From assembly GCA_040954595.2 (NCBI GenBank), contig CM082592.2:3302735-3366734 (forward strand): a DNA stretch of 64,000 nucleotides, written 5' to 3'. The notes beneath the pieces were generated by a model. It did no database searches and had not been told where the DNA came from. It saw only the letters and a list, made by a program, of their open reading frames with translations. This document shows, in pieces, positions 24,372-55,539 of the stretch (position 1 is the stretch's first letter; each line of letters starts with the position of its first letter). The position numbers were made by a program, and so were the translations under genes. This DNA is from Balanoglossus misakiensis (lineage: Eukaryota; Animalia; Hemichordata).

Positions 24372-27300
24372 CTATACTTTAGGGTCGCGTACTCCTGCTT
24401 TCAGGTCTGGTTTCGAATTATCAGAGGATCCACTCCTGGAATTCTTAACTTGAACGTCTTTCAGGTCAGATTTTGAATTATCACGGGACCCATTTCTGTC
24501 AATTTCTACTTCAATGTCTTTCAGGTCAGGTTTCGAATTATCAGAGGATCCACTCCTGGAATTCTTAACTTGAACGTCTTTCAGGTCAGTTTTTGAATCA
24601 TCAAGGGACCCATTTCTGTCAATTTCTACTTCAATGTTTTTCAGGTCAGGTTTCGAATTTTCGTTTCTGTCAACTTGAACTGCCGGCGCTTCATCGCTGT
24701 CTGAGTACGCGGGGTTACAAGTGCCAATGCTGCCCACCTTAGAGGATTTGATAATAATTTCCCCCGTAGGCTGTTTGGCTGGACCAATCACCGACAGCAC
24801 GACAGGTAACAAGAATAGCGCATGCGCCACACCAAAAATGACGGTCAGCAGCATGATTCTGAAGAACGACAGGAATACATAGGAGTCTGCGCCAACGAGC
24901 ACAACGATCCCGATGAAGGTAGAAATCCCGCCATTCAGGATGGGAACAGCGACGCGGGAAAGAGCGACCTCAACGCGGTGGTTACGATCTATGCCATCAG
25001 CTTTCATGAAGGCATGACAGACATGCGCGCAGAAGTCGACAGAGAAACCGATGCTCATGACAATGTGAATCATTGTGATCGAGCTCAGAGAAAGCCCCCA
25101 GAAATACATGAAACCAAAGAGGCCGACAGTTATCATCACTATGGCAACAGTGACGTAAAGGACACAGAGGATGTGTGGGATGAAGAATAGACAGACAACG
25201 ACCATAGCTGCCACAGCGCATCCAACGGTCTGCAAAGTACTTGGCAATACTTGCACGTACTGCTCAAAGTAAATGAATGCACCGGTGTATGCAAACGCGG
25301 GTAAAGAACTGCCATCCGTTATCTCCCGAACTCGTAGCATCATTTGACCTTGTACGTGTGAACTTGTCAAGCCAACAGATTGAACATAGAACCGTGAAGC
25401 TGTGATTTCTCCTTCGTTAGAAAAGTTCAGGTCACCTTGGAAGACAGGAAAGGAAGAAAGGAAACGTAAACGAAGAGATTCCATGAAATAAGACTCATTT
25501 CTAGGCAGCGAACCGTTGTGGAAGCTCGAAAAGCTGTCAAGCCATGATATCTGAAAATCGTTAGCGACGTAGCTGTCATTCTGAAGAGCCACGAGCAAGC
25601 TATCAACTTCTTGTTGCACGCCCGTGTCCCAGTATGCTTGGGCGCCATCAACGATGACGCTGATGGTTGGACCGATGCTTGAGAAGTAGTCGCGTTCTAG
25701 TCTGAGATAGGAGTGAAGGTAAGAACTTGGCGGAACGAGGTTCTCCAACAAGAGGCCCTGCTCTAGATGCATCGCGCCCCAAATAGAAACGGCCAGATAC
25801 CCGGCAAACACAAATATCACGATTATCTTAACAGGCAACAGGATGATGAACTTTCCCAGGTGTTGGGGCAACAGCTCGAAAATGCTTCGGTCTTCGGTGT
25901 CGTCTGCTGCATTTCTCGACTTATAACACCGACAAAAGAACAGCCACTGACAGTACCAGAATTTACCACGAGATTTACAGGAATCCTCCGGTGGTATGTG
26001 CGTGCAAGTGACGCAGTGTCGTTCGTCCTTCACCCGTCTCGTGTGGAGCACTAACGAACCCCCGAAAAAGGTCAGTTGCATCAGATAACACCATATCACA
26101 GCAAAACCTGACAAAAATAGAAATGAGACATTTTTGAAAGAAGGAATGCGAACTAGTCGCTACCACTTTCTTGATTCTTCAATCCCTGGGTCGTTTACAT
26201 TCCTTAATGATAGACTAATGGATTTTTGTATACCAACATATATAACGCCCCAAAAACATATATGGCCACGTGAGGGCGCATCATCGTATGCCAACGTGGT
26301 AACCTGGGAGAACCATTATTATAGCAAGCTTTGCAAGACATTCCTGAGATATTTAAAAAAAAAAGATACTCTGGCAGGCTACCACAATCTCTTTCTTTCC
26401 ATACCACAACCAGTTTTGACCAATGTGTAGTTTGCTTTTGGCCGACTTGAAGTCGTACCTTGATTCTGTCGTCATAAGTACTAGTATCTGCAGCAGAAAG
26501 CGTATGGCCTACCTGTGTAGATGCAAAAGTTACGCACGGCCGGGAACACATTGGTTGCACCAATAGAGAAAGCCAAGAGATTCGTCAGTGACGTTATGGT
26601 GATAGAGACTGCCGAAATTCCCAGAGCGCCGGACACTCTTCCTTCGACAGTGTCAGAGGGTTTGGTTTCCAGCCATCCCGACATCAAGATGAACATGTCG
26701 TCTATTCCGATCCCTGAAAACATGATAGACGGACAGATGTAGACTCTCGAGGAATTGATATGTAGGTCCTATAGCAATATGAAGTGGAGTTTGAAACGGC
26801 CACGACACAAGACAAGAGGCATTGACGCATATAAGCAGTCAGAGCCAGACAGAGACATACATACATACATGTACATGCAGACAGACAGACAGACAGACAG
26901 ACGGACGGACGCACGGACATACACAGATGTCGATAGAAAACAGACAATGTCAGAGGGAACAGATTATGACATCACTAGCAGAACTAGCAATGCATTGCCA
27001 AACCTTGTGCAAATTTACGCTGTCATCTTTCATCGTACTGTAGACCTCGGTGCTCTGCAGCGAAAATTCTCTGATCAAAATGGGAAAGACCAATGTAACA
27101 CTGGTGATCAAATAAATGTAAGCTACCAATGTTCAATCCACTTACCTACAATTAAAAACGGCATAACGCCGACTATGTTGACGTTTTTCACGCCAATGTA
27201 CGAACAGAATCCATACGCCGCCAGGATAGCCAGACCCGCGGAATACACCCCGGTGCTTGCCAAGAACCCCCTGCTGGTGATGCAGTTACCAGTACCACAA

Positions 27301-28028
27301 ACAAACGTTGCATAGAAGATCATGATCGTGAACGTTATGGGAAATTTCGTAATGTCACCAGAAGTTCCTGAATCCAGTTCATCGTTTAGGCTTTGTGAAG
27401 TTGAGTAAGCTACCTGGCTGGCGTTCCCGTTCCATTCAGACATCCACGCTGCGAATTCCTTCTCCCATAACAATCCCACTGCTTTGTTTTCTTCATCACT
27501 GCAAATATAATACCTCAGACGAAGTGCTTCGGCGGACAGTGCCCTGCCGTTGAGCAAGTCCTGTTTCCCGCTGACATAGCACGAGCCAGATCTCTTCGCG
27601 CAGACATCGTGATAGCTGTACTCACTACCGTCGACGGTGACGGTAACATCAGACACTAGTCGGCCATCCAGCTCAATTATCTCTCTCAAAACATCGCTTG
27701 TGGATACGTTGTCGCTGGTGCTCTGATTCAGGACGATGACGTCACCGTAAAGGCCGAGAGTTGTAGCTTGGTGAGGGTAGAAGTTCGTGCAATCTTCCTG
27801 ACCAAACAGTTCTGATGCTCGGCGTTTGTCGCGATCTGCTCGGCTGTTCTCCGGCGTGTACAGGTAGTCGAGGTCGGTGTCTGTCTCCAACCATACAAGT
27901 CCCAAACCCAGAAAACCAGTCACCAGCAACGCAGCGGCGATGATTGCGATGGGATGGCGGGAAAGAAAACATCCATATTTCTTGAAAGTCGCGCTCATAT
28001 ACCGCTCCATAATTTCATAGACCGCCAT
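24372..28028 (-). CDS. PTCHD3-like: Patched domain-containing protein (PTCHD3/PTR-like RND-superfamily, sterol-sensing-domain transporter), paralog A, ~939 aa
   Basis: Exons 28028-27146, 26713-26513 and 26107-24372 (both introns phase 1; 2820 nt total). Motifs: YLYTPENSRA, VGVMPFLIVGIGIDDMFIL (TM4 GxxxDD), SITITSLT, FPAVRNFCIY, FIYFEQY, SIGFSVDFCAH (TM10 GxxxD), HALFLLPVVLS. Confidence 0.93.
24397..24660 (-). repeat. Coding tandem repeat (120-bp unit built from two 60-bp subunits) in the PTCHD-A C-terminal tail
   Basis: KPDLK(N/D)IEVEIDRNGS(L/R)D(D/N)S-K(T/S)DLKDVQVKNSRSGSSDNS occurs twice. Confidence 0.9.
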
Positions 28029-28487
28029 GTTGGTGTCGTTTTGTTGTTTGACAGAACATCAAAACTTTCACGCACACGTTTTTATATCTTAAACTCTACC
28101 AACAGAGCTTGGAGCAGGCTTATGTGCTCACACAACGACCAGACCCTGCAAAATGTAAAGTAATTTTAAAACTTTGGAATTAAAAGTCTAAATCGACGAC
28201 TTCAGAAAAGTAACTGGTTTCGTGGAATCGTCATTCAAGGAACAATTCTCGGTATCTCGGCTGAATTCAACGTAAACTCCACCTCACGCAAGAAATACAA
28301 AATGAAAGTGACAAAATACAAGATTGATGTATGATTCGCTCGAAACTTCGTTCAGTCGCGCGTGCCGTTGCTGTGATCAAATAAGAAAACGGCGAATCAC
28401 AGGTAAACCGAAAGTAAGAAATCACACCTGATGTCTAGACGCTCTGTCTTCCAAAACGCCACAATTCACAAAGTGCATATTATACCC

Positions 28488-28585
28488 TAGCTGTGGTAAC
28501 GCAGCTGTACCGTTGGGGGGGGCTGATTACCCCCACGGACAATCAGCCCCCCCCCCCCAACGGTACAGCTGCGATACCAGAGCTA
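28488..28585. repeat. Hairpin-forming inverted repeat (probable MITE)
   Basis: tagctgtggtaacgcagctgtaccgttgggggggctgatt ... aatcagcccccc...caacggtacagctgcgataccagagcta. Confidence 0.75.
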
Positions 28586-31500
28586 ATTACATGTATACCC
28601 TAAAACACGGTCACTACACAACGTATTTCTCCATCTAATCACGAGAAATTTTGACAGAAGAAGAGGACGCTTACTTCACGTCAGATTTCGCTTCTCCAGT
28701 ATGCCTTACTTACGTTTTGGACTCTGTACGTCCGCGGACAATAAATGTACGAACACAATAAACGATTACAACGAAGTCTCGATAAAAAAATGATTCACCA
28801 CGCAGGCGAGCCTGCACGTGTGATAAAACAATACCGCTGCTGTGGACGCTGGGAGACAAGGTTGTCGTTCACTCGGGCACAAAGAAAAGAATGTAGAAAA
28901 AGTTTGTATGATTGGCGTGCCACGGAGGACAACTGAAACTCAGCAAGGGGTGACTCAACGGGCTTTCCACTGTAACTATAAGAAACAAGGCTGATGTAAT
29001 TCTTCGTACATTACGTCTATAGGTATTGTCAAAAATCTAGCGACGGCGGCATGAATAAAAGCCTGTCGATCAGACAGCGTCGTGTATGGTGCTGTAGTGG
29101 CCGCGCCATTATTAATGAGAAGCACGGCTTGTTGATTGGTCAACTTGCGGTCACTCCTTGCTGTCGTGATTATACTTACCTGTTTTTTTATTGGCGCGTA
29201 AATGCACTGCTGCGTACTTTGTACAATGATAGCGAGCAGTCATTTACCCCGGTGACTTGGTTGAGCCCAGAAGTCTCCGTCTTCCGAGAAAACGCCAGCT
29301 TCCAATCTGGGGGGCTATAAACATTTATGTTTTCCTCGCAGGAGTCACTTTGGCCACTAAAAGTACACGCTTGAAAACCGTGCATATGTCGCAGAGTGTA
29401 CATCCTCGCCCATTCATCTGTTAAGGTCGGCCCATCGCCTGGAACCAACAGAGGTAGGTTTGCCAAGATTTTTTTTTATCAGTAACGCGTCGGGCGCAAG
29501 TGTTGTGACATTGTCGTTTCGCAATTTTGCGGGTTTTTTTAAAAGGCAAATACCAGTCCAGGAACTTTCTAATCTTGTATGCAGTGTTATTATCCCTGGG
29601 TTGAATTCTGTGCTTAGATTAGCCGAACGGAAACGGAAGTTGTGTGAGCACGTCCGTGTGGGGGAGCGGGGTTATTCATCATTTAAACACTGACGAATAA
29701 GTTTACTCCCAAGGTCACCACTTCGCTTGCGTTGACAATTTTTTTGTCTCAACTATAAAAAATTGTATTCTTTAGATTTTGAAAGTCTTTTCTTTTCTTG
29801 TTAGTCTAACCCGGACCGTTCCACCTTGTTTGAGAGAGCGCAGCTAGTGCAGTTCGGTCACCTAATAGATGCAAATTTAGCTGCAGTTACCATGGTAAAT
29901 TGGTATGCAGCCAATCAGATTTTCAGTCGGTGGCACATGCGAAAAAAAGAGTGATATTTTCGAAGAAAAGTAAATTCTTAAGCTACTTTGTACTTGTTGC
30001 GGTGTATGGTACACTAACAAATGGCTTTACATTTCATGGCGTCTTGGTTTACAACGTCAAACCGAAAACAACCACTTTTTAAGCAGGATGAATGTGCGTC
30101 TGCGTATAATCTACTGTTCTTGCCTCGTCATAAGACAAAGTCATTTCACTGATTTGCATCTATAGAGGGACCCTGGGAAAGTTTGCACTCCAGTAAGAAC
30201 CGGTATGGACCGGTTTGCCCAGGTCACAGTCTGGTGAAGTTCACCTAGGCCCGAACTACTTCTTCCACTCTTTCAGCCGGATTACTTAGGCAAACAAAAG
30301 CGGCTGTGTGAAGAGGCAGTTTCCGTTTTATTGTTGTCGCACTAGTTGTCGTTGGTTTTGAATGTTTGTGTGGTGCCGATGGAAAGCACTTGTTTTCATT
30401 TGAAACATATATTTATCAAGTTATTTCAAAAGTCGCGCGCTTTTGACACTGCATTGTAGTGATATATTCCTACGCCATGTGGCAATGAAACTAGCTAGAT
30501 CTCAGACTGAAGTTGATTTTCAGTGTTTTAGATGTGAGAAGTGGAAAAAACAAAGACCCAGCAACTCTACATACTCCAACCGGATATCAAGTACTCATAC
30601 TGATTTTAATTTGCTATATATGCATAATCTTACAGCCCAAATATGGTCAAATAGACCACCGCAGCAAAAGACCAGTTTCCTCTTGCGTCTGGAAAATACA
30701 TCACAGTTTCAGACTGTAATTTAATATAGCATACCATCCAGCAGTTGTATGCGGTAGTGTCAAACAATGGGATTTTTTTCAGGCTGAATTTCACTACATT
30801 ACCCCCCGGTGGATATGTTCATGCACTTTCACTTTGCCTTCAATTGCATCTGAAAAATAAAATTGTGGCAAATGACTAATAATTAAGGGAATGGCCAAAG
30901 TAACCAAATAATGGGAAAAGAATATTTGAAGGAAAGGTTGTTGGAAAACTGGAAAATAATGTGTTCGGCTTAAATTACTTCACTGTTGCAGTGTCTCTTT
31001 CGTTTTGTGATATGTATATTAAATGAGCATTACCTGTGCCGTTTGACTAGCTTTAGTTTATTTGTCCTTTGTATTAATTACAAACTCTCATTCTGCTCCC
31101 ACTAGAATGCAAAACTGAATTTTAGTCCGGACTTCGAAAATACTGAAAATAAATCACCGTGATTCACGTCAAATTTCCGTTTCCAAAAATCAAGCAGTAA
31201 ACTTGGATATGGTTGTTTCATCAATAGGGGGAGAGGGAGGGGAGAGAGACGGGGAGAGGGGGAGAGAGAGCGGGGAAGAGAGAGATTATGCGTGCGCATC
31301 TGCAGAATCGACTCATTGGCGAGAAAACTCCCTCCAGCGATTGGAAGTACTGCACCTTTATTGTATTAGTCAGGAGGGTTTACCTATTGTATCATGACAT
31401 GTACGTGTAGAGTTGAGACTGGAGGTGTAACTTCTCATGTACAACACATAGACGGGTATATCTCAAGTTACTGTCGTAGGTAACACACTGTGAAACAACT

Positions 31501-31676
31501 TCGGTTAGGGATGGATTAGTATCTAAAGTGATCAATGTGTTTAATTTTCCAAGCGTGCTCCCAACTTGTGTGAAAAGTGTGCTGCTCAAAGGCTTGTGTC
31601 AGTGACCTTCACTCTTAAAATGTTGACACCCCCTGGCCCTGGGCGTGACCATTTCAGCATTTTCACGTTACAGACC

Positions 31677-32050
31677 ATGGATCCAGACTCGGATGACGCC
31701 ATTGCAGTCGTGGGGGTGGCCTGCAAGTTCCCTGGTGCGAACGACATCGATGAGTTCTGGCGGGTCTTGGTGAACGGGGAAAACCACGTGATTGAAATAC
31801 CGAAGGACAGATGGAACAGCGACGCTTTCTACAGCAGCGACAAAAGCGCTACAGGCAAATCTTACGTCAAACATGCAGGATTTATCGACAGGTATATTTG
31901 ACTGTGGAATCTGGGTAATATAGGTGAAGTTGACGATTTCGCTGTTGAATAGTCCTTCATCAACTGGTGAGAGGTTGATTTAGAGAAATGTCTGGAGATG
32001 TAGGGGCTGGTAGTCGTACTTATAGTGGTAGTTGTGGACACAAGCTTACG

Positions 32051-32106
<56 letters not shown>

Positions 32107-35100
32107 ACTGATTATTCCGGGAACTAAAACCCTAAATGTCAACCAAATCCTATTTCCCCATTCCCTCTCGTATCTTGACTTCTGGGTATGATTAACGTTT
32201 AATGCATTGTCTCCAAACACTAGGTTGAACGAATGGGACAATCGATTCTTTCAAATCAACGACGATGAAGCAGCGCGGATGGATCCTCAGCAGTACGTTC
32301 TACTTGAATGCACCTACCGAGCTTTGGAAAATGGCGGGTTTCCAGTGGACAAGGTATCTGGGATGGAAGTCGGTTGCTATATTGGTGAGTCTTCGTTTGG
32401 TCTTCGTTTGATCTCGACGATCTCTAACGATGCCCTTGGAACCCATATGACACAAGTGTGCACCACATGAGTTACTTAAGAACACGGCTATCCTATTCTG
32501 AGTGGGCCATCGTCGTAAACTGAGGTTTAGGTGGGGCACCGCATTTTAATACACTGTGAGTTGGATTTTGATTTGTTTGGGTCCTATTTGAAGGGTTGAA
32601 TACCGACCACATGAAATAAATGTAGCAATGGTTTCAAAGGGGAAGTGATACGCATAAGCCGGGTAGGCCTATGCGTGACCCTACCCCCTTTGTGCATTCA
32701 GTTAACATTCCTCACAAAGAACCGAGATCTACAATGAAGGTCTTTGCTTCTTTAGAACACCTATTAGTGTGAGATTATGGTAGTCTGAGTAATGGCATGG
32801 TTAACAAGGCAGCCTTCTCTGGTCTATGCCCTACTGCTTTATAGGTGTGATGTCGAATGACTATGGAAATCTGATCAGCGCAGACGTGAAAGAGCGGGAC
32901 AATTACACAGTGACTGGAGCGGCAATATCTATCATAGCCAACCGACTGTCTTTCGCCCTAAACTTGACGGGGCCGTCACTCTGTGTGGATACAGCCTGTT
33001 CATCTTCCCTAATGGGTATTCACCTCGGTAGTCAAGGGATACGTTCAGGTGGGTACAGCAACAAGGAATGGAAATAAATACATTTTCCAGCATTAACTTC
33101 TTTATTCAATCCAAAATTTGTAAATTATGATTTTTAAATATAGTTTGAGTATTACCAATCGTTGTACAGCATATACTGAACACTATCAAAATTATGCTTG
33201 TAATTATAGGAGATTGTGAAATGGCCATCTGTGGTGGCGTGAACATTCTTCTGGATCCAAAAACGTTCATAAGCTTATGCAGGGCAAACATGGTATCTCC
33301 AACTGGTCTGTGCCAGCCATTCTCTGCCAATGCTGATGGCTATGCAAGAGGGGAAGGTTGTGGAGTTGTTATTTTGAAATCTCTGCGAAAGGTAGATGGC
33401 GGTAATGTTCTAGTTACTTTGCAATCAGTCTGAGCATAGGCAGTAGACTGCATGTTCTAGTACTTTGCAACCAGTAGGCAGTAGACTGATTTGGTCTGAG
33501 TCACAGTGAATCAACATGAATACAATTGAGTACTTTATATTGACTATTTGAGGAATGGCAACTTTTCATATGAAACTAACGTTTATAAACATGTATTTAA
33601 TACTGTGAAGTGTGCAGAAATCCCGCCAAAAATGTGTCGGTCCAATGTCCACTTCCTGTAATTGTTACAAGTTTGCTTTGGTAATTTTCAGCTAAAATGT
33701 ATCATCTATTTTCCATTCAATAACTAGGCCATAAGCGATGGTGACAGAATTTGGGGAATCATTGGAACTGGCTGCAACCAGGATGGTCACTTTGCTACAC
33801 CCATAACGGCCCCTTCTTCCAAACAACAGGAACAGCTTCTACACAAAGTTTACACTAAATATAACGTTGACCCTTGTGACGTGACTTACATCGAGGCACA
33901 TGGTACTGGCACACCTGTAGGGGACCCCATTGAGGCATCGTCCCTGGGCAACTTCATAGGCAAAGCTCGAAAGCCCGGGGCTTCACCCTGCTACATGGGA
34001 TCGGTGAAAAGCAACATTGCTCACCTGGAGTCTGCAGCTGGTGTCGCTGGGTTGATCAAAGTGCTTCTGATGATCAAGAACCGAACGATCGCGCCGACCA
34101 TTCATTTCGACAAACCAAACAGCCGAATAGACTTGCAAGACATCCAGTTACAAATCCCAACGAGGGTCTCGGCATGGGAGACAGAGGATGGCCGTGGTCG
34201 ATTAGCCTGTGTGAATTCGTTTGGTTTTGGTGGTTCGAATGCCCACGCTATCGTGAGAGAATACGTCGACCCGAGAGAAAGCAAACCAATACTCTACCCA
34301 GTCATCGCCATCTCAGCCAAATCCAAGGCATCCATGAAGTTGAGCTTGCAGAATCTGAAGAATGTACTGAAGAACAGGACAAATGATTTGATAGATGACC
34401 TGTCGTACACATCCACTGTGCGGCGGGCGCACTATAGAAATTACCGATTCGCCACGTACGGAACCAGCAGCGCGAGTATATGCCAGATTTTGGAAAAGGA
34501 AGAGAACGCAATAGACAGCAAACAGCCGCTCAATACTGTCAGACCAAGGCGAATCATCTTTGTCTTTCCTGGAATGGGCACAGACTGGGAGGGGATGGGC
34601 CATGACCTGTTTACCAAAGAAGCAAGCTTCAGAGTAGTTATAGAAGAAATTGATGGACTGCTGTCAAAATACACTGATCAGTCCCTTGTAGATGTTATCG
34701 CACACGGAGGAATGGCACTGGGCGCCATGAAACAGGTAGCGATATTTGCTATCGAAGTGGCTCTTCACCACCTGTGGGTATCATGGGGTATCAGACCAGA
34801 TGCTATGATCGGTCACTCAGTTGGTGAGGTTGCGGCAGCATATGCAGCGGGGAAGCTAGACCTCCCAACCGCAGTCAAGATAATATTCTACAGGAGTCAG
34901 TTTCTGCAGACAGTGTCAGGAGGAGGAATGGCTGCTGTGGGCAACACATCTGCCGAGAAAGTCGATGAATATTGCCAAGCTGTAGACAGACGGGTGGAAA
35001 TTGCCGCCAATAACTCACCCACGTCTTTCACACTATCCGGAGATGAAGATGCCATCACTGTAATCGAAAATCTGATTGCAAATGAAAACCAACAAGAGGG

Positions 35101-38100
35101 CATGGACATATTTTTCCGTCGACTCAACGTATCCACAGCATTTCACTCACACCACGTGCAGCCGATATGCAATGACTTCCTCAACTCGATAAATCCTCTG
35201 GAGACACCGGACAATGGCGAATTTGTGGAGATTTACTCCACCGTGACAGGAAAAATTGCCACAGAGAGTGACTTCAATAATTGCCACTACTGGAAACGAA
35301 ATATAAGACAGCCAGTTCGTTTCTTCAAGGCCATGGAAGCTGCACTCAGAGAGGACACGGAGAATATCGTCGTAGAAGTTGGACCCAAACCAGCACTGCA
35401 AAGGAACATCAGAGAAATAGCTTCTGACTACAGCTGTACAGTGCTGACGTCTATGAGAGAAAATAATGGCCATGCTACTATGTTGGACGCTCTCTGCCAG
35501 CTCTACCAACTGGGTGTCCAAGTAGACTGGGACTCGTACCACAAACAAGCGCAACGAGTTCCAATAGATCAGCCAGTCTATCAGTTCAACAGAGGCAAAC
35601 ATTGGTATGAACCAGAACCCTCCCGGCAGTATAGGATGGGGATTAGCACAGACAGTCAGGTAAACTATCAGTTTGTGTCCAGAGTTTCAGCTGACGAGAT
35701 GACCTACAGATGCAACATGAATAGAAGCGACTTTCCTTTTGTGTTCGACCATCGTGTCGGTGGATCTATCGTAGTACCCGGTGTTGTACACGCTGAACTG
35801 GCGCTCCAGGCATGTTTATCATCGGTAGGAAACAGAGGACAGCATTACTGTCGCTTGTCGATTGACTTCCTGAAACCACTGATGCTAACAGAAGAAAAGG
35901 ATGTCTTTGTGCGACTTGAAGCTAGAGGTGCTGACTCAGATAGTTATTCCTTCAAAGTTGATTGTGGGGAGATAACAACAGCTGAAGGTCATGTCACTGT
36001 GAGCTTAAAGACGGACGCTGCGAGATGTCTGAACATTTCTGAGATCAAATCTCGTTGCATCGATGAGATTGAGGTGAAGAAAATCTATGATTTTCTAGGA
36101 CTCCTCGGGTTTTCATATGGCCCAGCTATACGCCCCCTATCCAAATGCTGGAAGAATGACGAAGAAGCACTTGTGATGTTGATATTGCCAGAGGAACTCT
36201 CAGACCAGTTGCCAAATACATGTATTCACCCTACAATATTCGACGGTATGCTTCAGACCACTGCCGTTGCTTCGTTCCAACCAAATCTTGACGAGAATGA
36301 TCTATCCGTGCCAGCCTTTCCCATTAAGATTGGGAATGTTGAAGTGTTTGGCAAATTTAATTCCCGTGTCTTCGTTTACACGCGGGTGATAAAGGCAACG
36401 GAGTTCTTGGTCAGTTACAATGCAATCGTCATGAACGAGTCAGGGGAAGTTGTGGCCGAATGCAGAGATATCATCACAAAGTTACTCGATGAAAATGAAA
36501 GCAAAGTTGTTGGTCAACTTACCTATGAAATGGAATGGTACGAACTTGATAGTGACAACGTCAAAACCCCGGGGCAGAAATCAGAGGTCATTGAAGCGAA
36601 CGAACAGCTTCCTTATTGCGTTATATTCGCAGACAGCAAAGGCATAGCCAAACTTCTGGCAAAGTTCGTAAGCGATCTTTCTCGTGTCATAGAATGTTCC
36701 AGTACTCACAGAAATGATGTCAATCACATCTTGCAGAGTCTACAGAAAGAGATCAGCACTTGTCGACGTATATTCTACATGTGGAGCATTGATAATGACA
36801 GGGAGAAAACCAGTGATGATGACCTGTATGACAGAATTACGTCGATATGCTGTACACTTAAATCTATTGTGAAGTTTCTTGCCCAAAACGGCGCGACATG
36901 CCCCTTGACTGTAGTAACACATGGCGTTCAAGGTACCCCTTATGGTACAGAAGGCTCTTCACTTAAGTCCCATTCTGATTTGACCGGTGCTCCTGTTTGG
37001 GGGATGATAAGATGTCTGCTCAGAGAAAGCACGTATGATGAGACAACACTGATTGACTTGAGCGAGGGCACACTGGAAGAGGTTGCAACAATGGCTTGTC
37101 TATCTTTCGAAAGTCAAGCAGTCCAGTGCTCAGAGTATGCCATATGTGGTTCTAGAGTCTTCTCGAATAGAATGAAGAGGGTGAAGATAGACGAGGGTTA
37201 TTTCAAGAAGCGTGCGATTGGTGTCCAGCCAGATGTACCAATTGAAGTGACATCCAATCTTGCAGACAGTGTCAAAACACTCAAGCTACAGTACACAGGA
37301 AAAGATGTGTCCAATATTCCTTCGGTAAAATCTGTCCGTGTCCGCATAACGAAGGCTAGGTTACATGACGCAGAGGTTTTTCACGTCACCTCAACTGGCC
37401 TGTCATTGAAAGGGCAATTACATGTACCATGGTCAAATCATATGATTGATGGGCATCCGGTCCTTGGCATTGACTTCCTTGGCGAAATTGTGTCTTCTAA
37501 CTGTAACATTCCACAAGGTACAAAGGTGCACATATGCTACCCCATGAAGATTTGTTCGGTCACGAATGTGCCAGAATCTCTTGTAGTCAAGTCAAGCGAA
37601 CTCCCGAAGTGGATACAAGGAACACCTTGTCTCTCCCTGCTAGTCATCATATGGCAAGTGCTGGTGGCCAGCGTGAATGAATACCCTAAAAGGCAGCTTA
37701 TCATTGAAGGAACCATGAAGTACACACACCTGAGTGATCTGTTTTCATCATATGCCAGGAAATGTGGTTTCAGAGAGATCCCAACTGATTATGCCAGTCA
37801 TATTGACGACAGCATAGCCAATGGCCTTGAGCCTTCGGTTTTCTTGAATCTTGGCAACCTGTCACACAGATCAAGTCAGTGGGTGTTGAATAATCTTCCC
37901 ATTGGATCAGTGTTTGTGAGTGTGATAAACGGTGCTGACCCTTCAATTCAGTGCCTGGGTACGCTGAGGCCAGATATGAAGTTCATTGCAATCAACACCA
38001 ACCAAGTGTTTCAGGCAAGACACCTTGAGAGAGTCCTCCCACAAGTCGTCAAGTGGTTGAAGAAGATGTCATCGAAACACAGACTGGAAACACTCACAGC

Positions 38101-41100: not shown

Positions 41101-41739
41101 TAGTTGGTTAATGCGTGTCAGTGAATATTGTCCCGATTACAAAAGATGGTCTAAGATGAGTACATCAGACAGATGACGTCCATTCGATTCAACAACATGA
41201 ATATTTGTGTTTACTATTTTTGTACAGGTGTACGTCTAGCAAAGAGAACGTCCAAAGGATACAAGTACAAAACACAACTGTGTATTCAGAGATGTCCGAT
41301 CACAAGCAAGAAGTTTTTGACTTGGCAGTCAAATGGCCGAGAGAGACGAATACCTCTACACGACGTTGCTGTCATGAAAATCTACAAGTTCACAGGTGGG
41401 TAAAGCGTATGGCACATAAAGTGAGGTGGTACACTTGGACAAGCAGCACCAACTTGGCACAGTGCACAAGCATTGCGTTACAAAGGTGTTTGTTTAGATA
41501 CAGTGTAGTCCTTTCCATTCTGGTATGAGAATCTACCCTATTGCGGTTGGGCATAATTTAGTTTACCTTTATTTCATATTCATAATTTATGTAAGTAAGG
41601 CGTGAATTTTCTTCATTTCTGCATTTTAGGTTGTTGCATTTTGGAAATCAAAGCTAACAAGAGGACACTGACGTTTGAGGGTCTTGACAGTGACAAATTG
41701 CTGGCATGGGCTAACGAACTGAAAGAACGGTTATTGTGA
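31677..41739 (+). CDS. pks: Animal type I iterative polyketide synthase, KS-AT-DH-pseudoER-KR-ACP-Condensation-PH-like, ~2745 aa
   Basis: Exons 31677-31891, 32224-32384, 32845-33048, 33210-33391, 33728-40925, 41228-41395, 41630-41739 (8238 nt, frame-consistent). KS: IAVVGVACKFPGA, MDPQQ, DTACSSS, EAHGTGT, KSNIAHLESAAG, NSFGFGGSNAH. AT: VFPGMG, GHSVGE, TAFHS. DH: DHRVGGSIVVPG, HPTIFDGMLQ. KR: GGAKGLG, GQANYGAGN. ACP: LGLDSM. C domain: HPMLRAKY, PFDLE, INHISCDFSS, IGCFINNALLR. Confidence 0.95.
32051..32106 (+). repeat. (GCT)n(GAT)n microsatellite in PKS intron 1
   Basis: Direct reading. Confidence 0.9.
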
Positions 41740-46645: not shown

Positions 46646-49600
46646 TCATTCTTGTGTGTCTAATGCTTTATTATCTCTGCCCATTTCCCCCTTCTCTACA
46701 CGTTCATCCGAGTTTCCAGGCTTACTTTGGACCAGTTTCGGCTCAGTTGGAGAATTTCGAATTCCATTTTCATCCGATTTTGCAGGGTCAATATGACCTG
46801 TTTTTGGTTCTGTTGGGGATTTTTGACTATTACTCTTTTCCATTACTTTACTTTCATTTGAATTTTCAGGCTTACTTTGGACCATTATTTTCGTCTCTGT
46901 TGGGGCATTTCGAATTCCACTTTCATCCGATTTTGCAGGGTCAATATGACCTGTTTTTGGTTCTGTTGGGGATTTTTGACTATTACTCTTTTCCATTCCT
47001 TTACTTTCATTTGAATTTTCAGGCTTACTTTGGACCATTATTTTCGTCTCTGTTGGGGTATTTCCAGGAACTGTATTTCTCATAGCTTCCTCCGATTTTG
47101 CGGAGTCAGTTTGTTCCATTTGTGGTTCTTTGGGGGCATTGGGGCTTACTGTATCTTCCATATTCATATTAATTTCCTCTACGTTTGTCTCGTTATTTCC
47201 GCCATTTGTACTTTTTTTCGAAGGACCAATCAGCGACAACACGACAGGGAGGAAAAGGAGCGCATGCGCGACTCCAAAGAGGATAGTGAGAACCATTATC
47301 CTGAAGAATGACTGGAATACGTAAGAACTGGCGTCTACAAGCATGATTACACCGAGGAGGGTGGAGATTCCACCATTCAAGATGGGCACTGCAACACGAG
47401 ACAGGGCCACCGTGACTCGCTCGTTGCGATCTTTCCCATCAGCCTTCATGAAAGCATGGCTGACATGCGCACAAAAGTCGACGCTGAAACCTATGCTAAT
47501 GACTATGTGTATCATAGTGATGGAGCTCAAAGAAAGGCCCCAGAAATGCATGAAACCAAACAGACCGACAAGAATCATCACCATGGTTATGGTGACGTAA
47601 ATAACACAGAGGGGGTGGGGGATGAAGAATATGCAGACGACAAACATGGCCGCCACAGCGCAGCCGACAGTTAGCAATGTGCTCGGTAGTACTTGAACGT
47701 ACTGCTCGTAATAAATGAACGCGCCTGTGTAGGCGAATGCAGGCAAATCACTGCTGTCGGCTATTTTCCGAACTCGTAGCATCATCTGGCCTTGGTCGGT
47801 TGAACTGGTCAGTCCGACGGAACGGACATAGAATCGCGATGCCACTGTCACGTTTTCATCGGTAATGTTGTTCACATCATTGCGAAGGATAGACACAGAG
47901 TCGAGGAAAGATTGCAGAGAATTAATGAAAGCAGACTCTTCGCTGGGAGGCGATCCGTTATGAAAGCTCGAGAAACTATCCAGCCAGGATATTCTGGAAT
48001 TGGCGACGATGTCGGGGTCATTTTCAATATTTGTGAGTAAGTCGTTTATCTTTCCCTGCACGCCCTCTTCCCAGTAATTTAGGGGGCCGTCCATGACGAC
48101 AGTAATAATGGGACCGTTAGCGTCGAAATAGTCATTGTTGAGTGTAAGGTAGGAATGGAGATAGGAGCTTGGTGGGACAAGATTATTCAACAAAAGACCT
48201 TGCTGTAACTGCATGGCACCCCATATAGAAACGCCCAAATATCCTGCAAACACAACTAAAACTATTATTTTTACCGGCCAAAGTTTCACGAACGATGCAA
48301 ATGGCCCTGAAAACCGCTCGAAAATGCTTCTGTCTTCCTCGTCTTTTTTTTTACTCTTTGATTCTACCCCGCGGCACCAGACAATCCAGTTACAGTACCA
48401 GAATTTCCCGCGCGCTCTGCAAGACTCCTCGTCCGGTATCGTTGTGCGCGTGGAGCAGTGTTTCCCGTCCTTCACCCGTTTCGTGTGGAACACCATGAAA
48501 CTGCCAAAGACCATCAGCTGCATCAAGTAACACCATATCACTGCAAACCCTGAAATATGCAGACAGCAGAAACTTTTAAAATGAAAATCCGTGGTTTGGA
48601 TGTGGTGCTGCTAAAAATAATTTATTATCGGGTGACTTTTAGTTCGCCTACGTTCGTCATCTAATTCCCGGTAATTTCCAGATTAGGGCTATGGGTAAAT
48701 TGTCTTCTGTATGTCCGCGCTTGCACGCGCATCTTTGTTCATTCACCTGCTCGAATTTCTTGCAATTTCAACACATGGTAACAACATCACAAACACATAG
48801 GCATTTTGAATAATTTTCGGAGATCACATGCAAAGCCACTAAAAGTTGATACCATCTCTTTTATGTTATTCACCGCAAAAATCAAAGCCTTAAACCTTTC
48901 TTTTCTCATTTTTTTACTCTAGGCACCTTATTCTCTCTTAAAATTAGCAATAAAAAGGAGGGCCACCACAAAATTGTCAATATGAGAGCGAAATGTCTGA
49001 AATTTGAAATTCAAAATGGCCGTCAATCTCAATGTTTACATTTATGGAGAAAGTTTGAATTCGTGATTTACATTAAATAAAACAATATGGCGAACAAATT
49101 GTTTCTTCTTTGTTTTCAAAAATACTCCTCGCGAACTTTAAGTATTGAATCGAAAGATTTTGAAGACTATTATTTTTCTGAAAATCTGTCCACGAGGCGT
49201 GTTCCACTTTAAACATGTATCGCTTACCAGTGTATATGCAGAAATTGCGGACAGCCGGGAAAACATTGGTCGCTCCAATCGTGAACGCCAGAAGGTCGGT
49301 CAACGACGTGATTGTGATGGAGACAGCCGAGATGCTCAAAGCAGTGCTGACTCTGTCAGCAACCTCGCTCGAGGGTTTGGTTTCAAGCCATCCAGACATC
49401 AACAGAAACATGTCATCGATTCCGATTCCTAGGAATTGAGAGAAACCAGTGGAACAGTGACAATAATGTGTGCAATATTCGCAAGACATCTGGGAAGAAA
49501 ACACAATCGCAGATTTATGTACTCCACTGTGTGTGTGTTTCACTGATACTGAGGCTTGTAAATTTTCATCGATATTTTCACTAAAAGTCGGATATTACAG

Positions 49601-52600
49601 CTTCAATGTCGATTTTAATCCTAGGTTACCGAGAATTCAATTGAGAAATTGACACCAAATCATTGATGTACCAGGAAAAAAAACACTCTCTGAAATAAAA
49701 GTGTCCTCACAAATTAGCCCGCGCCTATACTTTGACTTGCTAGAATATGCTTAGTATTTGACCCGCGTCCGCATCATCAGACGGGATGACCCCTGACCTT
49801 TAAGGTTACGCCAAGATACAGAACTCAACCGGACCGAATGCTGTGGGATAGCCATTTTGAGAAAAAGCAATTAAAATTGTAAAGTGTGTAGAACTAATTT
49901 CACAAACGAGCACGGCGGTTGGTCAACAAAGGAACCGTTCATTCGAGCCCTGGTTAGCATTCCGACGCTGCGCTGATGACGTCATTGTTGGTTTTGACAG
50001 ATCTATGGATGATGGCGTCAAATTTCCATGCCAAGTTGTTTACGCATAACACGCATTAATAAGAAACCAAAATGAAAGAAAAGCAATATCGGGGATCATA
50101 TCTGATTTACAAGCACTCGATGGACATGTATGTAATAAAGTGTAATATATGACAATGAACACATCGTGGGTGTTGCCAGTTAAGTTGCCCTGGCCACCCC
50201 GAAAGAACAGAAAGCTTTGCATCACGTCAACAACTCAGATATTTATACCCCCGGGTAATTCCGCGAAAGAAGTGAGCTCTGGCCTGTTTCCAACATATCC
50301 TGAGATCATATCCATAAAGAAATGGACACAATGCTCTTCAAGGAATTCGCAGCCAGGTAGGAGAAAACGAAAGTTGAAACGTAGGTGAATTTTTTACGAG
50401 AGTACGTTGAAATCAAATCACAGGTAAAAGCCAAGTAGAATTCCTCCGTGTTATAATTTTTACAATGAATTGATCACAAATAAAACTGTAAAGTTTCAAG
50501 TTAAAAAGAGGACGAAAAAAATGAAAATCCAAAAGCAAAGATGCGAGTGATTGGTTATTAGGATGTGACATGAATACGGTGTAGACATAGGAGTTATCTG
50601 CCTGTAGTAAGGGTGTGGCCCTATTAGACAGGGCAGGACAAATGGAAATATTGCCAACTTGGAGTGAAAATTCGCTTGTAAATATCAATGAAAGATTTGT
50701 TTTATGAACCAGATATTTGCAGGAAATCAACGCTGAAATTAACAAAGAAAAACGTATCTGAAGTGACAGTTACGACATCAAAGATAATTTAAACTCCATC
50801 TGCTGCCATTTTCACCACATTTTAATCAATTAAATTTTTCAATCTTCTTCGTATTCTTAGCCGACAGAAGATTTCATAATGCCCATGTGCGCATACAATG
50901 ATAGCTGTGTCCTCTTCAACGGTAAAAAATAACGATTTAACTTGGTTCACGGTTGATACAGTCACAATAGATAACTTCTTTTTAGTATACAAGCTTACCA
51001 ATCAACAAGCTCATTTAGATGGACCAATTTGGAATCATGAAAACAGTGCAAAAATGGCAGCTGTTGGGGCTTTAACCTGATGGAGGGGATACTGTTGTTT
51101 GCTTGAAACGGATGCCAAAATAGCGCCATAAATGTACATAATTGCAGCATCGACGTGTTTGTCCAATCACGGGGCGTGAACCCGGATCGAACAGCTCATG
51201 GATTGCGACCCTTGAACTATCATCTCAGACATTCATAGCATACAATAAGCCTCCAAACGAAAAATAAACTGCGTTGCTACGGGACTGCTTGCGATTCTAA
51301 CAACAGACCCGTTCCAAGGTAACTGGCAGAAATAAACATTACTTCCCAGGCGGTGTCGGCAACGTAAACGCCATCTAGCCCGATTACTTCCGTATATACA
51401 GGAGGACTTTTCTTCCGATTAAGTATAACAAAATCACACATACACTAAAAAAAGATCAGCTTCCAATGAAAATATTTCTCTCGATGCTTCCAAAACATTT
51501 GTGACTGTCAATCGAATACAAACGAAGCTGCTTGGATTACACATAGTTTGACGTCGTGTAGATTGTATAACAAAAATACTAAACAGGGCGAAGTCTCCTC
51601 CTTACTCAAAATTAAACATCAGTAAAAATGTATTCGAACTGATAGCGGTATCAATATCGCCATAAATGAAATATTTACAACGTTACTTGTCACATTCCCT
51701 GCGTCGTAAATGTCAACCCTTAATTTAAATGATAAGCTCACGATAATAAACAGTGCTTTTGAAAAAAAAAATACTACATATTTTTCAAAGCACTGTTTAT
51801 TATCGTGAGCTTATCATTTAAATTAAGGGTTGATATTTACGACGCAGGGAATGTGAAAAACAACATTTAACCCTCCGAACGCCATATTTTTCCTGTCAAA
51901 ATACTGATGCAACATTTTCTCAATTGTGTACATTATTTCTCTAAACTTCCTTTGTTTTGGACCAGGTAGACGTAATTTCGCATTGCCTACGGATTTTAAT
52001 CAAATATGTATACAAACGCGTTGCAAGGTTATGAGGGTTGATTTTTGAACGATGGCTTAAAGTTGACTTTGGCGTTGAAAGTGTTAACATTTACACGACA
52101 GTCGTGTTATAGTCGCACAATTTTGACGACATGTGTGTAACTATCTCCATCATGACTGTCTCTAAGTTAAACTCTGGGGCATTAATTTTCAGATGTTCGA
52201 AAAAGCTCCAGCCGAACTAGCGAAATGAAAGCTCAACTCCGCCTGAAATTCTTTCATTAAAAGTGTATACTACAACGTCGCCCGAATTTGATATCAAAAG
52301 AAATGAATTCTGAATTCGAATAAAATTGGAAAAGTGCGAAGGTAAACTACCCAGTAAAACATTTATGAATCCTGAATGGGAAAAACTGTTACTGGGGAAA
52401 CGAAAGTAAAGGATAGGTGAAGCAAACACAAATGCACGTGATATTTAAATTGAGTGAATAGCCAGAAGGTCAATCTAAGGTGCTGTTCACATAATGCAAT
52501 TTGATGTCATACCCTGTAAATTCCACATCTTGAACAAAGGCTTAGTTGTCAACATTTGGTGGAGAGGCTGGTTTTAAAGGAAAGGGGTCATCGCTCCGCG

Positions 52601-55539
52601 TGGGTGTCTCCCTTGGTGAGAATATGTCCTCCCATACAAGCGCAAACCCCACTGCAGTCGCCACGATCTTCAGTTGCTGTCATGCCCAGTCTATGCTACG
52701 GTTGACTCCTTCGTTCATTCTAAGAATTACTGTAAAACACTTTATTTTCGCGAGCGATAAATTTTCGCGAAATACGCGAGAGCCAAAATAGCGTGAAAAT
52801 AAAAATTTGCGTACATTTTTTTAAGATAACGATGCAGTGAATGAAATAAGAGAACGCAAAATTAATAATCGCGAAACAGTGGCCTCTCTCGATATCGCAA
52901 AAATATTAACTCGCGAAAGTAAAAAGTGTTTTACAGTATCTAATTTCAGTGATTTGTGGATGAATTGTAATGTTTATAGACAAACAAATGCGGCGCGACG
53001 AACACTTTACTTTAATGGAAGCTGTACTGCTATGAGAGAGTTAAAAAACTCGCCAAAATGAATAACCGTCTCTACCGTTTATTCCTTTCGCGAGAGTTTT
53101 ACTCTCATATCCTACAAACGGGATGGAAGTTGTGTGAATATTTATTTTGAAGCTTAAATAAGAGATATTGAACAACAAAAATAAAAACAACAAAACTATC
53201 AATAATAATTATGCTATTAATATCTTTATTGTAAGAAAGAAAAACAGAGCATTCCTCTTTTACTTATCAAGTATACAAATGACAAAATTAAATCGTTGGG
53301 ATTTCCGCACAGAAATATTAATGAGAAAATCACTGTCCACTGTACTTGATTGTCGAGACATAGTCTGTACAACGAAGGACATAAATGTGTGTAGGTAGTC
53401 AAGTCCGAGACTGAGATGAATTCACCATTGGGGTAAAAAGAAGAAATCACAAAAAAACAAAGGATTGCAATTCGTGTGCGTCAGTTCTCTTTTTAAATGA
53501 CACTTGACGCCATTTTGTTTCCGAGTGATGGCTTGCGCATTATGTGGTCTGGAGTATGCGATTACCAACATTTCATGTTATATTAATGTTAAAATAGCGT
53601 TTTCATGTGTGTTTCATATACATGTATGTAATATATGGAAGACGGCCATGATTGTAATGATAAAACAATGCGAGGTTTTAAATTGTTTTTTTTTTATCGC
53701 CATGTTAAAAATTCATCCTAACACGAACACATATCAAATCATGCATTTGATGTGGGGTGTTTTCTTTAATTTATTTCACATACGCACTAATCTAAGAGAT
53801 GATTTTATTAATACAACAATGGAGTTTTTAAATGATTTTTTTATTTAATATATAATATTTTATTTTTTTATATCGCCATGTTATAAATCCACCCCAACAC
53901 GCACACATCAAAAACACAGATGCATTTAATATAGAAGGCGGCTATGGTTTTTAATAAAACCACCTCCATGACTTTAATGATAGATAGACAAAGAATGAAC
54001 CCGAGCCGTCATTTTCTCCCTAACATTTTGATATCAAATTAACGTATGGAAAACGAAGATGTAGGAATCAAAGTCATTTAATTTTGTCTACATGAAATTA
54101 TAACTGGATTCGTTCTGGTGTTATTAATTCATGTTCCGTCTTTCTATTCTGCATCCGGGGTCTGCATATCTGCTCAACGTGTATACAAAATTAGAATATG
54201 CATATCAATTTGATACCATGCACCAAATGCATTTTGCACTTTGAATTAATTACACAGTGCTCTGTCATTGAAAAAAATAACGAAAATATTTATAATATTA
54301 AATATTATTATTATTATTTACTAATTAAAACTACAATAATTAGGTAAAAGATCTCATGCTGAAATTAATATACTGTCTACCGTAAAACGCCATTTTCATT
54401 TGATCCAGTACAAGACCGGATTACAACTGATATTCTATGAGTTGCCTAATACTAAAGCGTGGTAATTTCATCCTCATATAGTTATACAGATATTTTGGAA
54501 ATATCAGGAATACTTAACTTCCAAGAATATACATGTACCTACCTACGATAAGGAACGGCATGATACCGACCACGCTGACGTTCTTCACGCCGATGTAGGA
54601 ACAGAACCCATAAGACGCCAGGATCGCCAGAGCAGCGGCGACGACTCCCGTGCAAGCCAAAAAGGCCCTGTCGGTGATGCAGTTCAACGTGCCACACACA
54701 ATCGACGCGTAGGTGATCATCAGAGCGAAAGTGATGGAAAACCGGACGATATCGCCCGACAGTCCCGAATTCAGCTCGCTGCTTAAACTGTCGGAGGTGG
54801 AGTAGGCGATCTGGATGGACGTCGTCCCGTTCCATTCAGACAACCCCGCCAGAAATTCCTTCTCCCACAACAGACTGATGTCTTTGTATTCTCCATCAGT
54901 TCGGAGATAGTAACGCACACGGAGCGCTTCGGCAGACTGTACAGTTGACCTTTCACTGACCTTAACACCGCCCAAAATAGTTGGTAGGTATACCTGCGCT
55001 GCGCCCCTGGTATCAACGGGGTATGGGAGTTCATCAGCCAGGAAACCAATCACATCTGTACCGTTGAGCAGGTTTTGTATACCGCTAACGTAGCACGCGT
55101 CCGACTGTATCGCGCAGACATTGTAGTACTTATATTCAATGTCACCGACTGTTACTGATATGTTAGTTATGTACTCATCTAATGACAGATATTCATTCAG
55201 TACTTCGCTGGTCAAAACGTTTTCACCTTGGGTTTCATCAATAACGATCACATCGCCGTACACACCGAGAGTCGCTGACTGACGAGGGTAGAAGTCAGAG
55301 CCGCTCTCATCGGGGAACAAATCCTCTACCCGGCGTTGGTCTTTCACGGCCCGGCTGTTCTCCGGCGTGTACAGGTACTCGAGGTTTGTTTCCGTTTCTT
55401 GGAACAAAAGCCCTAACCCTAATATCCCAGTCGCGCCAAAAGCGATCAACAAAATCGGCAACGGGTAGCGGGAAAGAAACCGTCCGTATTTTTTGAAGGC
55501 GTTGCTCAAGGTCCCTTCCACATATTCGTGAAGCGCCAT
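46646..55539 (-). CDS. PTCHD3-like: Patched domain-containing protein (PTCHD3/PTR-like RND-superfamily transporter), paralog B, ~1033 aa
   Basis: Exons 55539-54543, 49428-49228 and 48549-46646 (3102 nt), with the same intron positions and phases as paralog A. Motifs: YLYTPENSRA, VGIMPFLIVGIGIDDMFLL, SITITSLTD, FPAVRNFCIY, FIYYEQY, SIGFSVDFCAH, HALLFLPVVLS. Confidence 0.93.
46705..47105 (-). repeat. Coding tandem repeat (153-bp / 51-aa unit, ~2.5 copies) in the PTCHD-B C-terminal tail
   Basis: PTETKIMVQSKPENSNESK(G/V)MEKSNSQKSPTEPKTGHIDPAKSDE(S/N)GIRN occurs twice, plus partial copies. Confidence 0.9.
51690..51856. repeat. Near-perfect long palindrome (arms ~75 bp, short A-rich loop) in PTCHD-B intron 1
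   Basis: tcacattccctgcgtcgtaaatgtcaacccttaatttaaatgataagctcacgataataaacagtgctttt.. is mirrored by ..aaagcactgtttattatcgtgagcttatcatttaaattaagggttgatatttacgacgcagggaatgtga. Confidence 0.92.
52730..52936. mobile_element. Tc1/mariner-type MITE (TA target-site duplication)
   Basis: TA|CTGTAAAACACTTTATTTTCGCGAG ... CTCGCGAAAGTAAAAAGTGTTTTACAG|TA. Confidence 0.8.

What the first reader, a model, noticed from the sequence alone, without database searches (positions are those of the whole stretch)
24372..55539. Candidate animal biosynthetic gene cluster: a PKS-condensation enzyme flanked on both sides by Patched-family RND transporters
Seen in the sequence: the only recognisable host genes between 24 and 56 kb are PTCHD-A (-), PKS (+) and PTCHD-B (-). 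Both transporters look intact and keep the RND acidic TM motifs (GIGIDD in TM4, GFSVD in TM10). Established knowledge: Patched/PTCHD/NPC1 proteins belong to the RND lipid-transporter superfamily, and in mycobacteria pks genes cluster with condensation-fold acyltransferases (PapA) and RND exporters (MmpL). Inference: this locus may be an animal analogue, in which the PKS builds an acyl chain, the fused C domain transfers it to an acceptor, and the PTCHD proteins export the lipid. That would give orphan PTCHD3-like proteins a ligand. I cannot confirm from the sequence alone that this is undescribed.
Basis: partly seen in the sequence, partly recalled or inferred. Interest (0 to 1): 0.92.

Follow-up and report, generated by a model that had tools for sequence, protein, structure and literature searches.

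The report
Ancient animal make-and-export gene pair
In what is likely an acorn-worm genome, a gene for a lipid-building polyketide enzyme sits between two copies of an orphan Patched-family membrane transporter gene; the same pairing is reported from corals to lizards, so the transporter likely moves the enzyme's product out of the cell.

Summary
The three genes are real and open-framed: PTCHD-A (-), PKS (+), PTCHD-B (-), with nothing else recognisable between 22 and 58 kb. The PKS is longer than reported: KS-AT-DH-KR-ACP-C plus two extra exons for a PH-like tail shared with other invertebrate PKSs. PTCHD-A lacks 38 residues kept by 52 of 52 homologs. A and B are sister duplicates, so 'both sides' is one linkage. 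That linkage is ancient: PKS and PTCHD3-like genes are two locus tags apart in Tegillarca and share a chromosome in 7 of 10 species. Papers report the pair in molluscs, starfish and lizards (co-duplicated), and fused into one protein in cnidarians. The medaka relative makes a secreted lipophilic product. Best reading (0.6): PTCHD3 exports the PKS product, like mycobacterial PKS-MmpL7. The C domain is a lineage add-on, not the conserved core, and resembles NRPS domains rather than PapA. The adjacency is in print, as synteny only; my ten searches found no functional proposal. This scan noted the pair before in two fish genomes. Transport itself is untested.

The parts
24372..28028 (-). PTCHD-A: Patched-related (PTCHD3-like) RND protein, 939 aa, 3 exons (28028-27146, 26713-26513, 26107-24372). 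Has an in-frame loss of 38 residues in luminal domain 1 near 27537 and a repetitive acidic C-tail (24398-24659).
28029..31676 (.). Divergent (head-to-head) interval between PTCHD-A and the PKS, 3649 bases ATG to ATG. Candidate shared regulatory region (inferred).
   Evidence: gene models
31677..41739 (+). Animal iterative type I PKS, 2745 aa, 7 exons (31677-31891, 32224-32384, 32845-33048, 33210-33391, 33728-40925, 41228-41395, 41630-41739): KS-AT-DH-degenerate MT/ER region-KR-ACP-C-PH-like.
39491..40681 (+). Condensation (C) domain of the PKS, core motif NHISCDF; NRPS-type by sequence.
   Evidence: Pfam 2.3e-30; PDB best hit tyrocidine synthetase C domain 2e-12; motif tally
41228..41739 (+).
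   Evidence: E 2e-14 to the Glandiceps tail, 8e-10 to Saccoglossus; weak Pfam PH hits for the Glandiceps tail, E 0.02-0.03; profile hits to PH-domain structures, best E 1.5e-4
46646..55539 (-). PTCHD-B: Patched-related (PTCHD3-like) RND protein, 1033 aa, 3 exons (55539-54543, 49428-49228, 48549-46646), tail-to-tail with the PKS; repetitive C-tail (46713-47064).

Best explanation
The locus holds an open-framed animal polyketide synthase next to two Patched-family RND genes, and it is likely a two-gene make-and-export unit in which the transporter moves the enzyme's lipid product out of the cell. Step 1 (motifs shown, chemistry inferred): KS, AT, DH, KR and ACP keep their catalytic motifs and no ER is detected, so the enzyme would iterate malonyl units into an unsaturated (polyene-type) acyl chain. 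Step 2 (inferred): the C domain, which keeps His and Asp here, would release the chain onto an amine or alcohol acceptor; other lineages use a thioesterase or no terminal domain. Step 3 (inferred): the PH-like tail would hold the enzyme at the membrane, a job done in cnidarians by the reported fusion to the Patched domain. Step 4 (inferred): the PTCHD3-like protein would lift the lipid out of the membrane through its sterol-sensing and luminal domains to the outside or a lumen, where it serves in biomineral nucleation, pigment or surface matrix. The second transporter copy is a local duplicate that is still under constraint.
For: Shown here: intact models and motifs. The PKS falls in one animal clade with fish, mollusc and annelid PKSs (SH-aLRT 100, quick tree). 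Tegillarca PTCHD KUTeg_007568 and PKS KUTeg_007570 lie on one contig, two tags apart. PKS and PTCHD3-like genes share a contig length in 7 of 10 species where both were retrieved; about 1 expected. A vs B dN 0.24, dS about 1.5, with equal rates. In print: PTCHD3 neighbours 'almost all' homologs of a clam PKS (PMC9894158); five Pks and five Ptchd3 full-length copies in one lizard interval (PMC10990284); PKS1 and PTCHD3 in one 56-kb starfish window (PMC12330192); most cnidarian PKS proteins carry a patched domain (bioRxiv 10.64898/2026.04.08.717340), matching coral 'other-KS-AT-DH-KR-TE' models (PMC4604110); medaka PKS is apical and its product is lipophilic and secreted; zebrafish ptchd3a and pks1 are both expressed in otic tissue; pks15 and patched3-like rise together in coloured mussel mantle. 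Precedent: PpsE-MmpL7 (PMC1238737).
Against: There is no transport, binding or co-expression datum for this locus. No Ptychodera PTCHD3-like protein was among the 120 listed, so the closest species is untested. Chromosome sharing is not adjacency, and 6 of the 7 positives are molluscs, so they are not independent. Glandiceps has close PTCHD3-like paralogs on two chromosomes other than the one carrying the PKS found. Placental mammals lack the PKS (PMC10764717) yet keep PTCHD3, although it is dispensable in mouse. The cnidarian fusion rests on gene models I could not inspect and could be merged neighbours. The zebrafish expression data come from separate studies and stages. PTCHD-A lacks a conserved luminal segment.
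Confidence: 0.6

Rival explanations
1. The pair is functionally coupled but not as an exporter of the finished product: PTCHD3 would bind or take up the polyketide as a receptor or importer, or manage another lipid (such as a sterol) needed by the same secretory cell or by the C domain as acceptor.
For: The closest solved relatives are the sterol handlers NPC1, NPC1L1 and PTCH1, whose direction of transport differs (established knowledge). Fusion, co-duplication and co-expression fit any shared pathway. PTCHD3 persists without PKS in placentals.
Against: The medaka product must leave the cell and the enzyme sits at the apical membrane. If the unnamed N-terminal part of the coral models is the Patched domain (inferred), the synthase would sit on the cytosolic tail of the transporter, the geometry of hand-off for export.
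Confidence: 0.22
2. Regulatory hitch-hiking: the genes share a head-to-head promoter or enhancer block and have stayed together without any shared molecule.
For: PTCHD-A and the PKS are divergent, 3.6 kb apart. Shared regulation alone explains co-expression and co-duplication. Unlinked paralogs exist.
Against: It does not explain a protein fusion in cnidarians, nor why this pair persists while the flanking genes differ: receptor-type genes here against Rab18 and Acbd5 in lizards.
Confidence: 0.14
3. Chance neighbourhood of two multi-copy families, doubled by a local duplication.
For: PTCHD3-like genes are multi-copy in hemichordates and molluscs, and A and B are one duplication.
Against: Chance adjacency is at most about 0.6% per genome under generous assumptions, and adjacency or fusion recurs in molluscs, an echinoderm, a lizard and cnidarians.
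Confidence: 0.04

Closest known systems
Animal iterative PKS clade: medaka OlPKS, zebrafish pks1, budgerigar polyene PKS, mollusc PKS with C domain, Saccoglossus LOC100373061
   Same: One clade by KS-AT tree with fish, mollusc and annelid proteins. KS-AT-DH-KR-ACP core without a detected ER. C-bearing forms are in print for molluscs (PMC10764717) and Saccoglossus (KS-AT-DH-KR-ACP-C-AMP; PMC4604110).
   Different: Ends in C plus a PH-like tail, whereas fish proteins end at the ACP. The tail is not listed in the domain table and passages I saw. The product is unknown. The medaka, zebrafish and budgerigar proteins themselves were not in my tree.
PKS-PTCHD3 synteny noted in print (clam MpES homologs, wall-lizard Rab18-Acbd5 interval, Acanthaster, cnidarian PKS with patched domain)
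   Same: Same two gene families, adjacent, co-duplicated or fused.
   Different: In the passages I read these papers use the linkage as proof of animal origin or as a description only; none proposes that PTCHD3 handles the PKS product. Here there are two PTCHD3 copies around one PKS-C-PH gene in a hemichordate.
Mycobacterial pks-papA-mmpL modules (PpsE-MmpL7)
   Same: Iterative or modular PKS linked to an RND-superfamily transporter; coupled synthesis and export reported there (PMC1238737 abstract).
   Different: The transporter here is Patched/NPC1-type, not MmpL. The condensation fold is fused and NRPS-like, not a free PapA. This is an analogy, not descent.
Animal biosynthetic gene clusters or 'bundles' (sponge oro, coral terpene, mollusc bursatellin)
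   Same: Non-homologous genes kept together in animal genomes (PMC12833800).
   Different: Only two gene types, one a transporter, with no tailoring enzymes nearby, and spread across phyla including vertebrates. That paper's main text has no hit for 'transporter', 'patched' or 'PKS'.

Membership tests
Animal iterative type I PKS (OlPKS/pks1 clade) | KS-AT-DH-KR-ACP with catalytic motifs | tested here: met
   Pfam; DTACSSS, EAHGTG, NIAHLE, GHSVG, DHRVGG, FDGMLQ, QANYGAGN and GLDSMQ located
Animal iterative type I PKS (OlPKS/pks1 clade) | Groups with animal PKSs rather than bacterial PKSs; has spliceosomal introns | tested here: met
   22-row animal clade at SH-aLRT 100 in a quick tree of 32 rows; six GT-AG introns. 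FAS/AFPK rows were not included.
Animal iterative type I PKS (OlPKS/pks1 clade) | No active enoylreductase (polyene-type product) | tested here: inconclusive
   No ER family hit in Pfam; region read by eye; no assay
Patched-related (PTCHD3-like) RND proteins | Sterol-sensing domain, and GxxxDD / GxxxD acidic motifs | tested here: met
   (GIGIDD at 295 and 333; GFSVD at 715 and 753)
Patched-related (PTCHD3-like) RND proteins | Two complete luminal domains | tested here: inconclusive
   Met for B; A lacks 38 residues kept by 52 of 52 homologs but shows no rate acceleration
Patched-related (PTCHD3-like) RND proteins | Orthology with vertebrate PTCHD3 | not tested
   No vertebrate PTCHD3 sequence was retrieved; the label comes from database names of the hits
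Mycobacterial pks-papA-mmpL module | PKS gene adjacent to an RND transporter gene | tested here: met
Mycobacterial pks-papA-mmpL module | PapA-type acyltransferase and MmpL-type transporter | tested here: not met
   C domain: 24 PDB hits, all NRPS-type, no PapA. Transporter (Glandiceps homolog P0053): top hits NPC1, NPC1L1, PTCH1; no MmpL among 45. Works like it; is not a member.
Mycobacterial pks-papA-mmpL module | Transporter needed for export and in contact with the synthase | not testable with these tools
   Needs genetics and biochemistry
NRPS-type C domain as active acyltransferase | HHxxxDG with the catalytic second His | tested here: inconclusive
   NHISCDF keeps His and Asp here, but His is kept in only 10 of 35 animal C domains and Asp in 35 of 35 (2 of 37 rows dropped because those Mercenaria proteins have no C domain); the Ptychodera relative has HNISCDF
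Animal biosynthetic gene cluster | Conserved linkage of non-homologous genes | tested here: met
   By proxy: locus tags in Tegillarca and shared contig length in 7 of 10 species, plus papers
Animal biosynthetic gene cluster | Co-expression and action in one pathway | not testable with these tools
   Only indirect literature from other species

The most novel reading that the evidence does not exclude
PTCHD3 is the dedicated exporter of the animal polyketide synthase product, and PKS-PTCHD3 is a two-gene biosynthetic cluster older than the cnidarian-bilaterian split: fused in corals, membrane-tethered through a PH-like tail in hemichordates, annelids and molluscs, and reduced to KS-AT-DH-KR-ACP in vertebrates. 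It would be the secretion route for the unidentified otolith and spicule nucleation factor and for polyene pigments, and human PTCHD3 would be dispensable because placental mammals lost its partner enzyme.
Probability: 0.5. Interest if true: 0.9.

Novelty: new variant of a known kind. Interest (0 to 1): 0.76.

Why it matters
PTCHD3 is an orphan RND protein, and the product and secretion route of the vertebrate PKS that seeds otoliths are unknown (PMC6531356, PMC10764717). A pairing kept from cnidarians to lizards gives one direct experiment: remove the linked ptchd3 in fish or sea urchin and look for the pks phenotype and for trapped product, which would also help identify the compound. It would extend the bacterial synthase-plus-RND-exporter logic to animals, including vertebrates, and point to PTCHD3 in shell and feather pigment work. 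The PH-like tail suggests how an animal megasynthase is held at the membrane.

Tried and rejected
No whole genome was held for the window, so copy numbers in this species are unknown. RNA runs: none was listed. A metagenome scan for PTCHD contigs gave 15 loci of 1.0-8.6 kb; 0 of 15 carried PKS sequence, too short and distant to be informative. RefSeq accession order could not show adjacency in Glandiceps (XP_077999939, XP_078000126-8, XP_078000620). No PKS-Patched fusion was found among the 337 fetched proteins over 1150 aa, mostly bacterial; the cnidarian fusion is therefore taken from a preprint. No structure model of the PH-like tail was obtained, so its fold rests on weak sequence matches. 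Complex prediction of tail with transporter was not available: no verdict. The protein atlas did not answer. The zebrafish expression tables were not among the supplements held. Two papers looked up by recalled id were not held. Rejected: 'two independent flanking transporters' (sister duplicates); 'PapA-like'; 'PTCHD-A is a decaying pseudogene' (open frame, equal rates); bacterial contamination or recent transfer (introns, animal clade).
Full report
OBSERVATION. Spliced models have GT-AG introns and no internal stop: PTCHD-A 939 aa, PTCHD-B 1033 aa, and PKS. Pfam gives KS, AT, DH, KR, ACP and Condensation for the PKS, and Patched/sterol-sensing domains for both neighbours. The catalytic motifs of the PKS are present, and both transporters keep GIGIDD and GFSVD. 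In the gaps, 0 of 261 short segments matched the fetched proteins and 0 of 8 ORFs matched Pfam. The outer neighbours are receptor-type genes, so the unit has two gene types and no tailoring enzyme. PTCHD-A and the PKS are head-to-head, 3649 bases apart; PTCHD-B is tail-to-tail with the PKS.

CORRECTIONS. The Glandiceps and Saccoglossus PKSs end in a domain of about 95 residues that matches two downstream exons of the window. Splicing from 40925 (or 40715) to 41228-41395 and 41630-41739 stays in frame and gives 2745 aa. The tail matches Glandiceps at 2e-14 and recurs in annelid, chiton and bivalve PKSs. It is PH-like on weak evidence: Pfam PH families at E 0.02-0.03 for the Glandiceps tail, none for the Saccoglossus tail or the two window exons scanned singly, and profile hits to PH-domain structures, best 1.5e-4, with ribosomal L38 also among the 31 hits. 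No structure model was obtained. PTCHD-A lacks residues 164-201 of B, which 52 of 52 homologs covering both flanks keep. A and B are 61% identical, sisters at 100/99 (quick tree of 48 rows), with dN 0.24 against dS about 1.5 and equal rates against four outgroups. So A is still constrained, and the double flank is one linkage plus a local duplication.

SOURCE AND FAMILY. The closest PKSs are from Ptychodera flava (55% over the whole length), then Glandiceps and Saccoglossus; the closest transporters are from Glandiceps and Saccoglossus. The window is likely from an acorn worm. In a quick KS-AT tree of 32 rows the PKS joins fish, annelid and mollusc PKSs in one clade at 100, apart from bacterial and fungal rows.

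LINKAGE ELSEWHERE, FROM MY CALLS. No genome of a relative could be read, so I used locus tags and contig lengths as proxies. In Tegillarca the PTCHD KUTeg_007568 and the PKS KUTeg_007570 lie on one contig. In 7 of 10 species where both families were retrieved they share a contig length (Glandiceps, Tegillarca, Pecten, Argopecten, Mytilus trossulus, Pinctada, Liolophura); in 3 they do not (Mercenaria, M. edulis, Potamilus). About one match is expected by chance among the nine chromosome-level species, assuming 14-23 chromosomes. This is rough: six of the seven are molluscs, lists were capped at 120 rows, and sharing a chromosome is not adjacency. No Ptychodera PTCHD3-like protein was listed.

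LINKAGE IN PRINT. PMC9894158 (section 6 read whole, figure not seen) says PTCHD3 is the neighbour of almost all homologs of a clam PKS and uses this only to argue animal origin. PMC10990284 (passages) reports five full-length Pks and five full-length Ptchd3 copies between Rab18 and Acbd5 in a wall lizard, and found no role for these Pks copies in pigment. PMC12330192 (one table row) has PKS1 and PTCHD3 in a 56-kb starfish window. bioRxiv 10.64898/2026.04.08.717340 (section 12 read; Fig. S15 is in supplements I could not see) states that most cnidarian PKS proteins contain a patched domain. PMC4604110 (passages with Table 2) lists coral PKSs as 'other-KS-AT-DH-KR-TE', the Saccoglossus one as KS-AT-DH-KR-ACP-C-AMP and vertebrate ones as KS-AT-DH-KR-ACP; that 'other' is the Patched part is my inference.

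FUNCTION IN PRINT. Medaka PKS is apical and its ethyl-acetate-extractable product is secreted into the endolymph (PMC4604110 passages). [quoted passage not shown] In pearl mussel mantle pks15 and patched3-like rise together (PMC12652611 passages, tables and supplement rows). A worm Patched-related protein is proposed to export matrix lipids (bioRxiv 10.1101/2021.03.30.437696, abstract). MmpL7 binds PpsE (PMC1238737, abstract). Cutting both ways: placental mammals have no such PKS (PMC10764717 passages) but keep PTCHD3, which is non-essential in mouse (PMC7285965, abstract) and, by title, in human (PMC3072306, search listing only).

THE C DOMAIN. It matches NRPS condensation domains (best 2e-12; 24 PDB sequences, none PapA). 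The motif is NHISCDF, keeping the catalytic His and the Asp. Across 35 animal C domains including this one, the His is kept in 10 and the Asp in all 35 (two Mercenaria rows without a C domain were dropped from 37). Fish PKSs of the clade have no C domain. The acyl-transfer step is therefore plausible for this enzyme but is not what ties the pair together.

MECHANISM. Most likely (0.6) the PKS builds an unsaturated acyl chain, releases it through C, is held at the membrane by the PH-like tail, and the PTCHD3-like protein exports the lipid. Gene structure, motifs, tree positions and the linkage proxies are shown; product, release, membrane tethering and transport are inferred. Rivals: coupled but not as exporter (0.22), shared regulation only (0.14), chance (0.04).

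NOVELTY. The adjacency and the PKS-C architecture are in print. A functional link between PTCHD3 and the PKS product was not found in ten searches of the open library; subscription papers are largely outside it. This scan noted the head-to-head pair before in two fish genomes (e1-8165719, e1-8165724), the second with six co-duplicated copies; these are unchecked notes, and I verified only the general linkage. New here are the hemichordate case, the PH-like tail, the variable C motif and the assembly of fusion, co-duplication, expression and loss into one testable model. Class: new variant of a known kind. Interest 0.76.

Noticed in passing
window 41228-41739; P0173, P0174, P0200, P0205, P0206, P0365, P0393, P0438, P0457: A PH-like C-terminal domain is shared by PKSs of hemichordates, an annelid, a chiton and bivalves. 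The Ptychodera model XP_070553984.1 stops before it, possibly a missed splice.
   Followed up: partly
P0174 (Saccoglossus), P0200/P0202 (Mercenaria): The C-terminal modules vary: Saccoglossus has C plus an AMP-binding domain plus the tail; Mercenaria has the tail but no recognisable C domain.
   Followed up: no
animal PKS C domains: Many mollusc-type C domains have His only at the first motif position (HxxxxD), so the catalytic His is lost or shifted; the Asp is invariant.
   Followed up: partly
window 24398-24659 and 46713-47064: Both transporters carry separately evolved tandem repeats (60/120 and 153 bases) in their cytosolic C-tails.
   Followed up: no
window about 9000-22000 (+): LDL-receptor class B / sushi / transmembrane gene with a 1238-codon open frame of a non-LTR retrotransposon type (RVT_1 2e-32) at 9636-13352 inside an intron, preceded by long trinucleotide repeats.
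   Followed up: no
window 1071-4060 (-) and 58142-63700 (-): Ig/FN3 exons on the left; a receptor tyrosine kinase with Ig, HYR and kinase exons on the right. Neither is biosynthetic. A reverse-transcriptase-like fragment, recognised by eye, lies at 4094-4711.
   Followed up: no
window 17034-17672, 28488-28585, 51679-51867: Inverted-repeat elements, with a piece shared between 17159-17533 and 53036-53137; possibly small DNA transposons.
   Followed up: no
PMC12652611 supplement: Hcu_1142.t14, the gene numbered next to pks15 (Hcu_1142.t13), is up-regulated and carries moulting, dauer and cytokinesis GO terms, which I recall as typical of worm patched-family genes; it may be the paper's patched3-like gene, but this is not shown.
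   Followed up: partly
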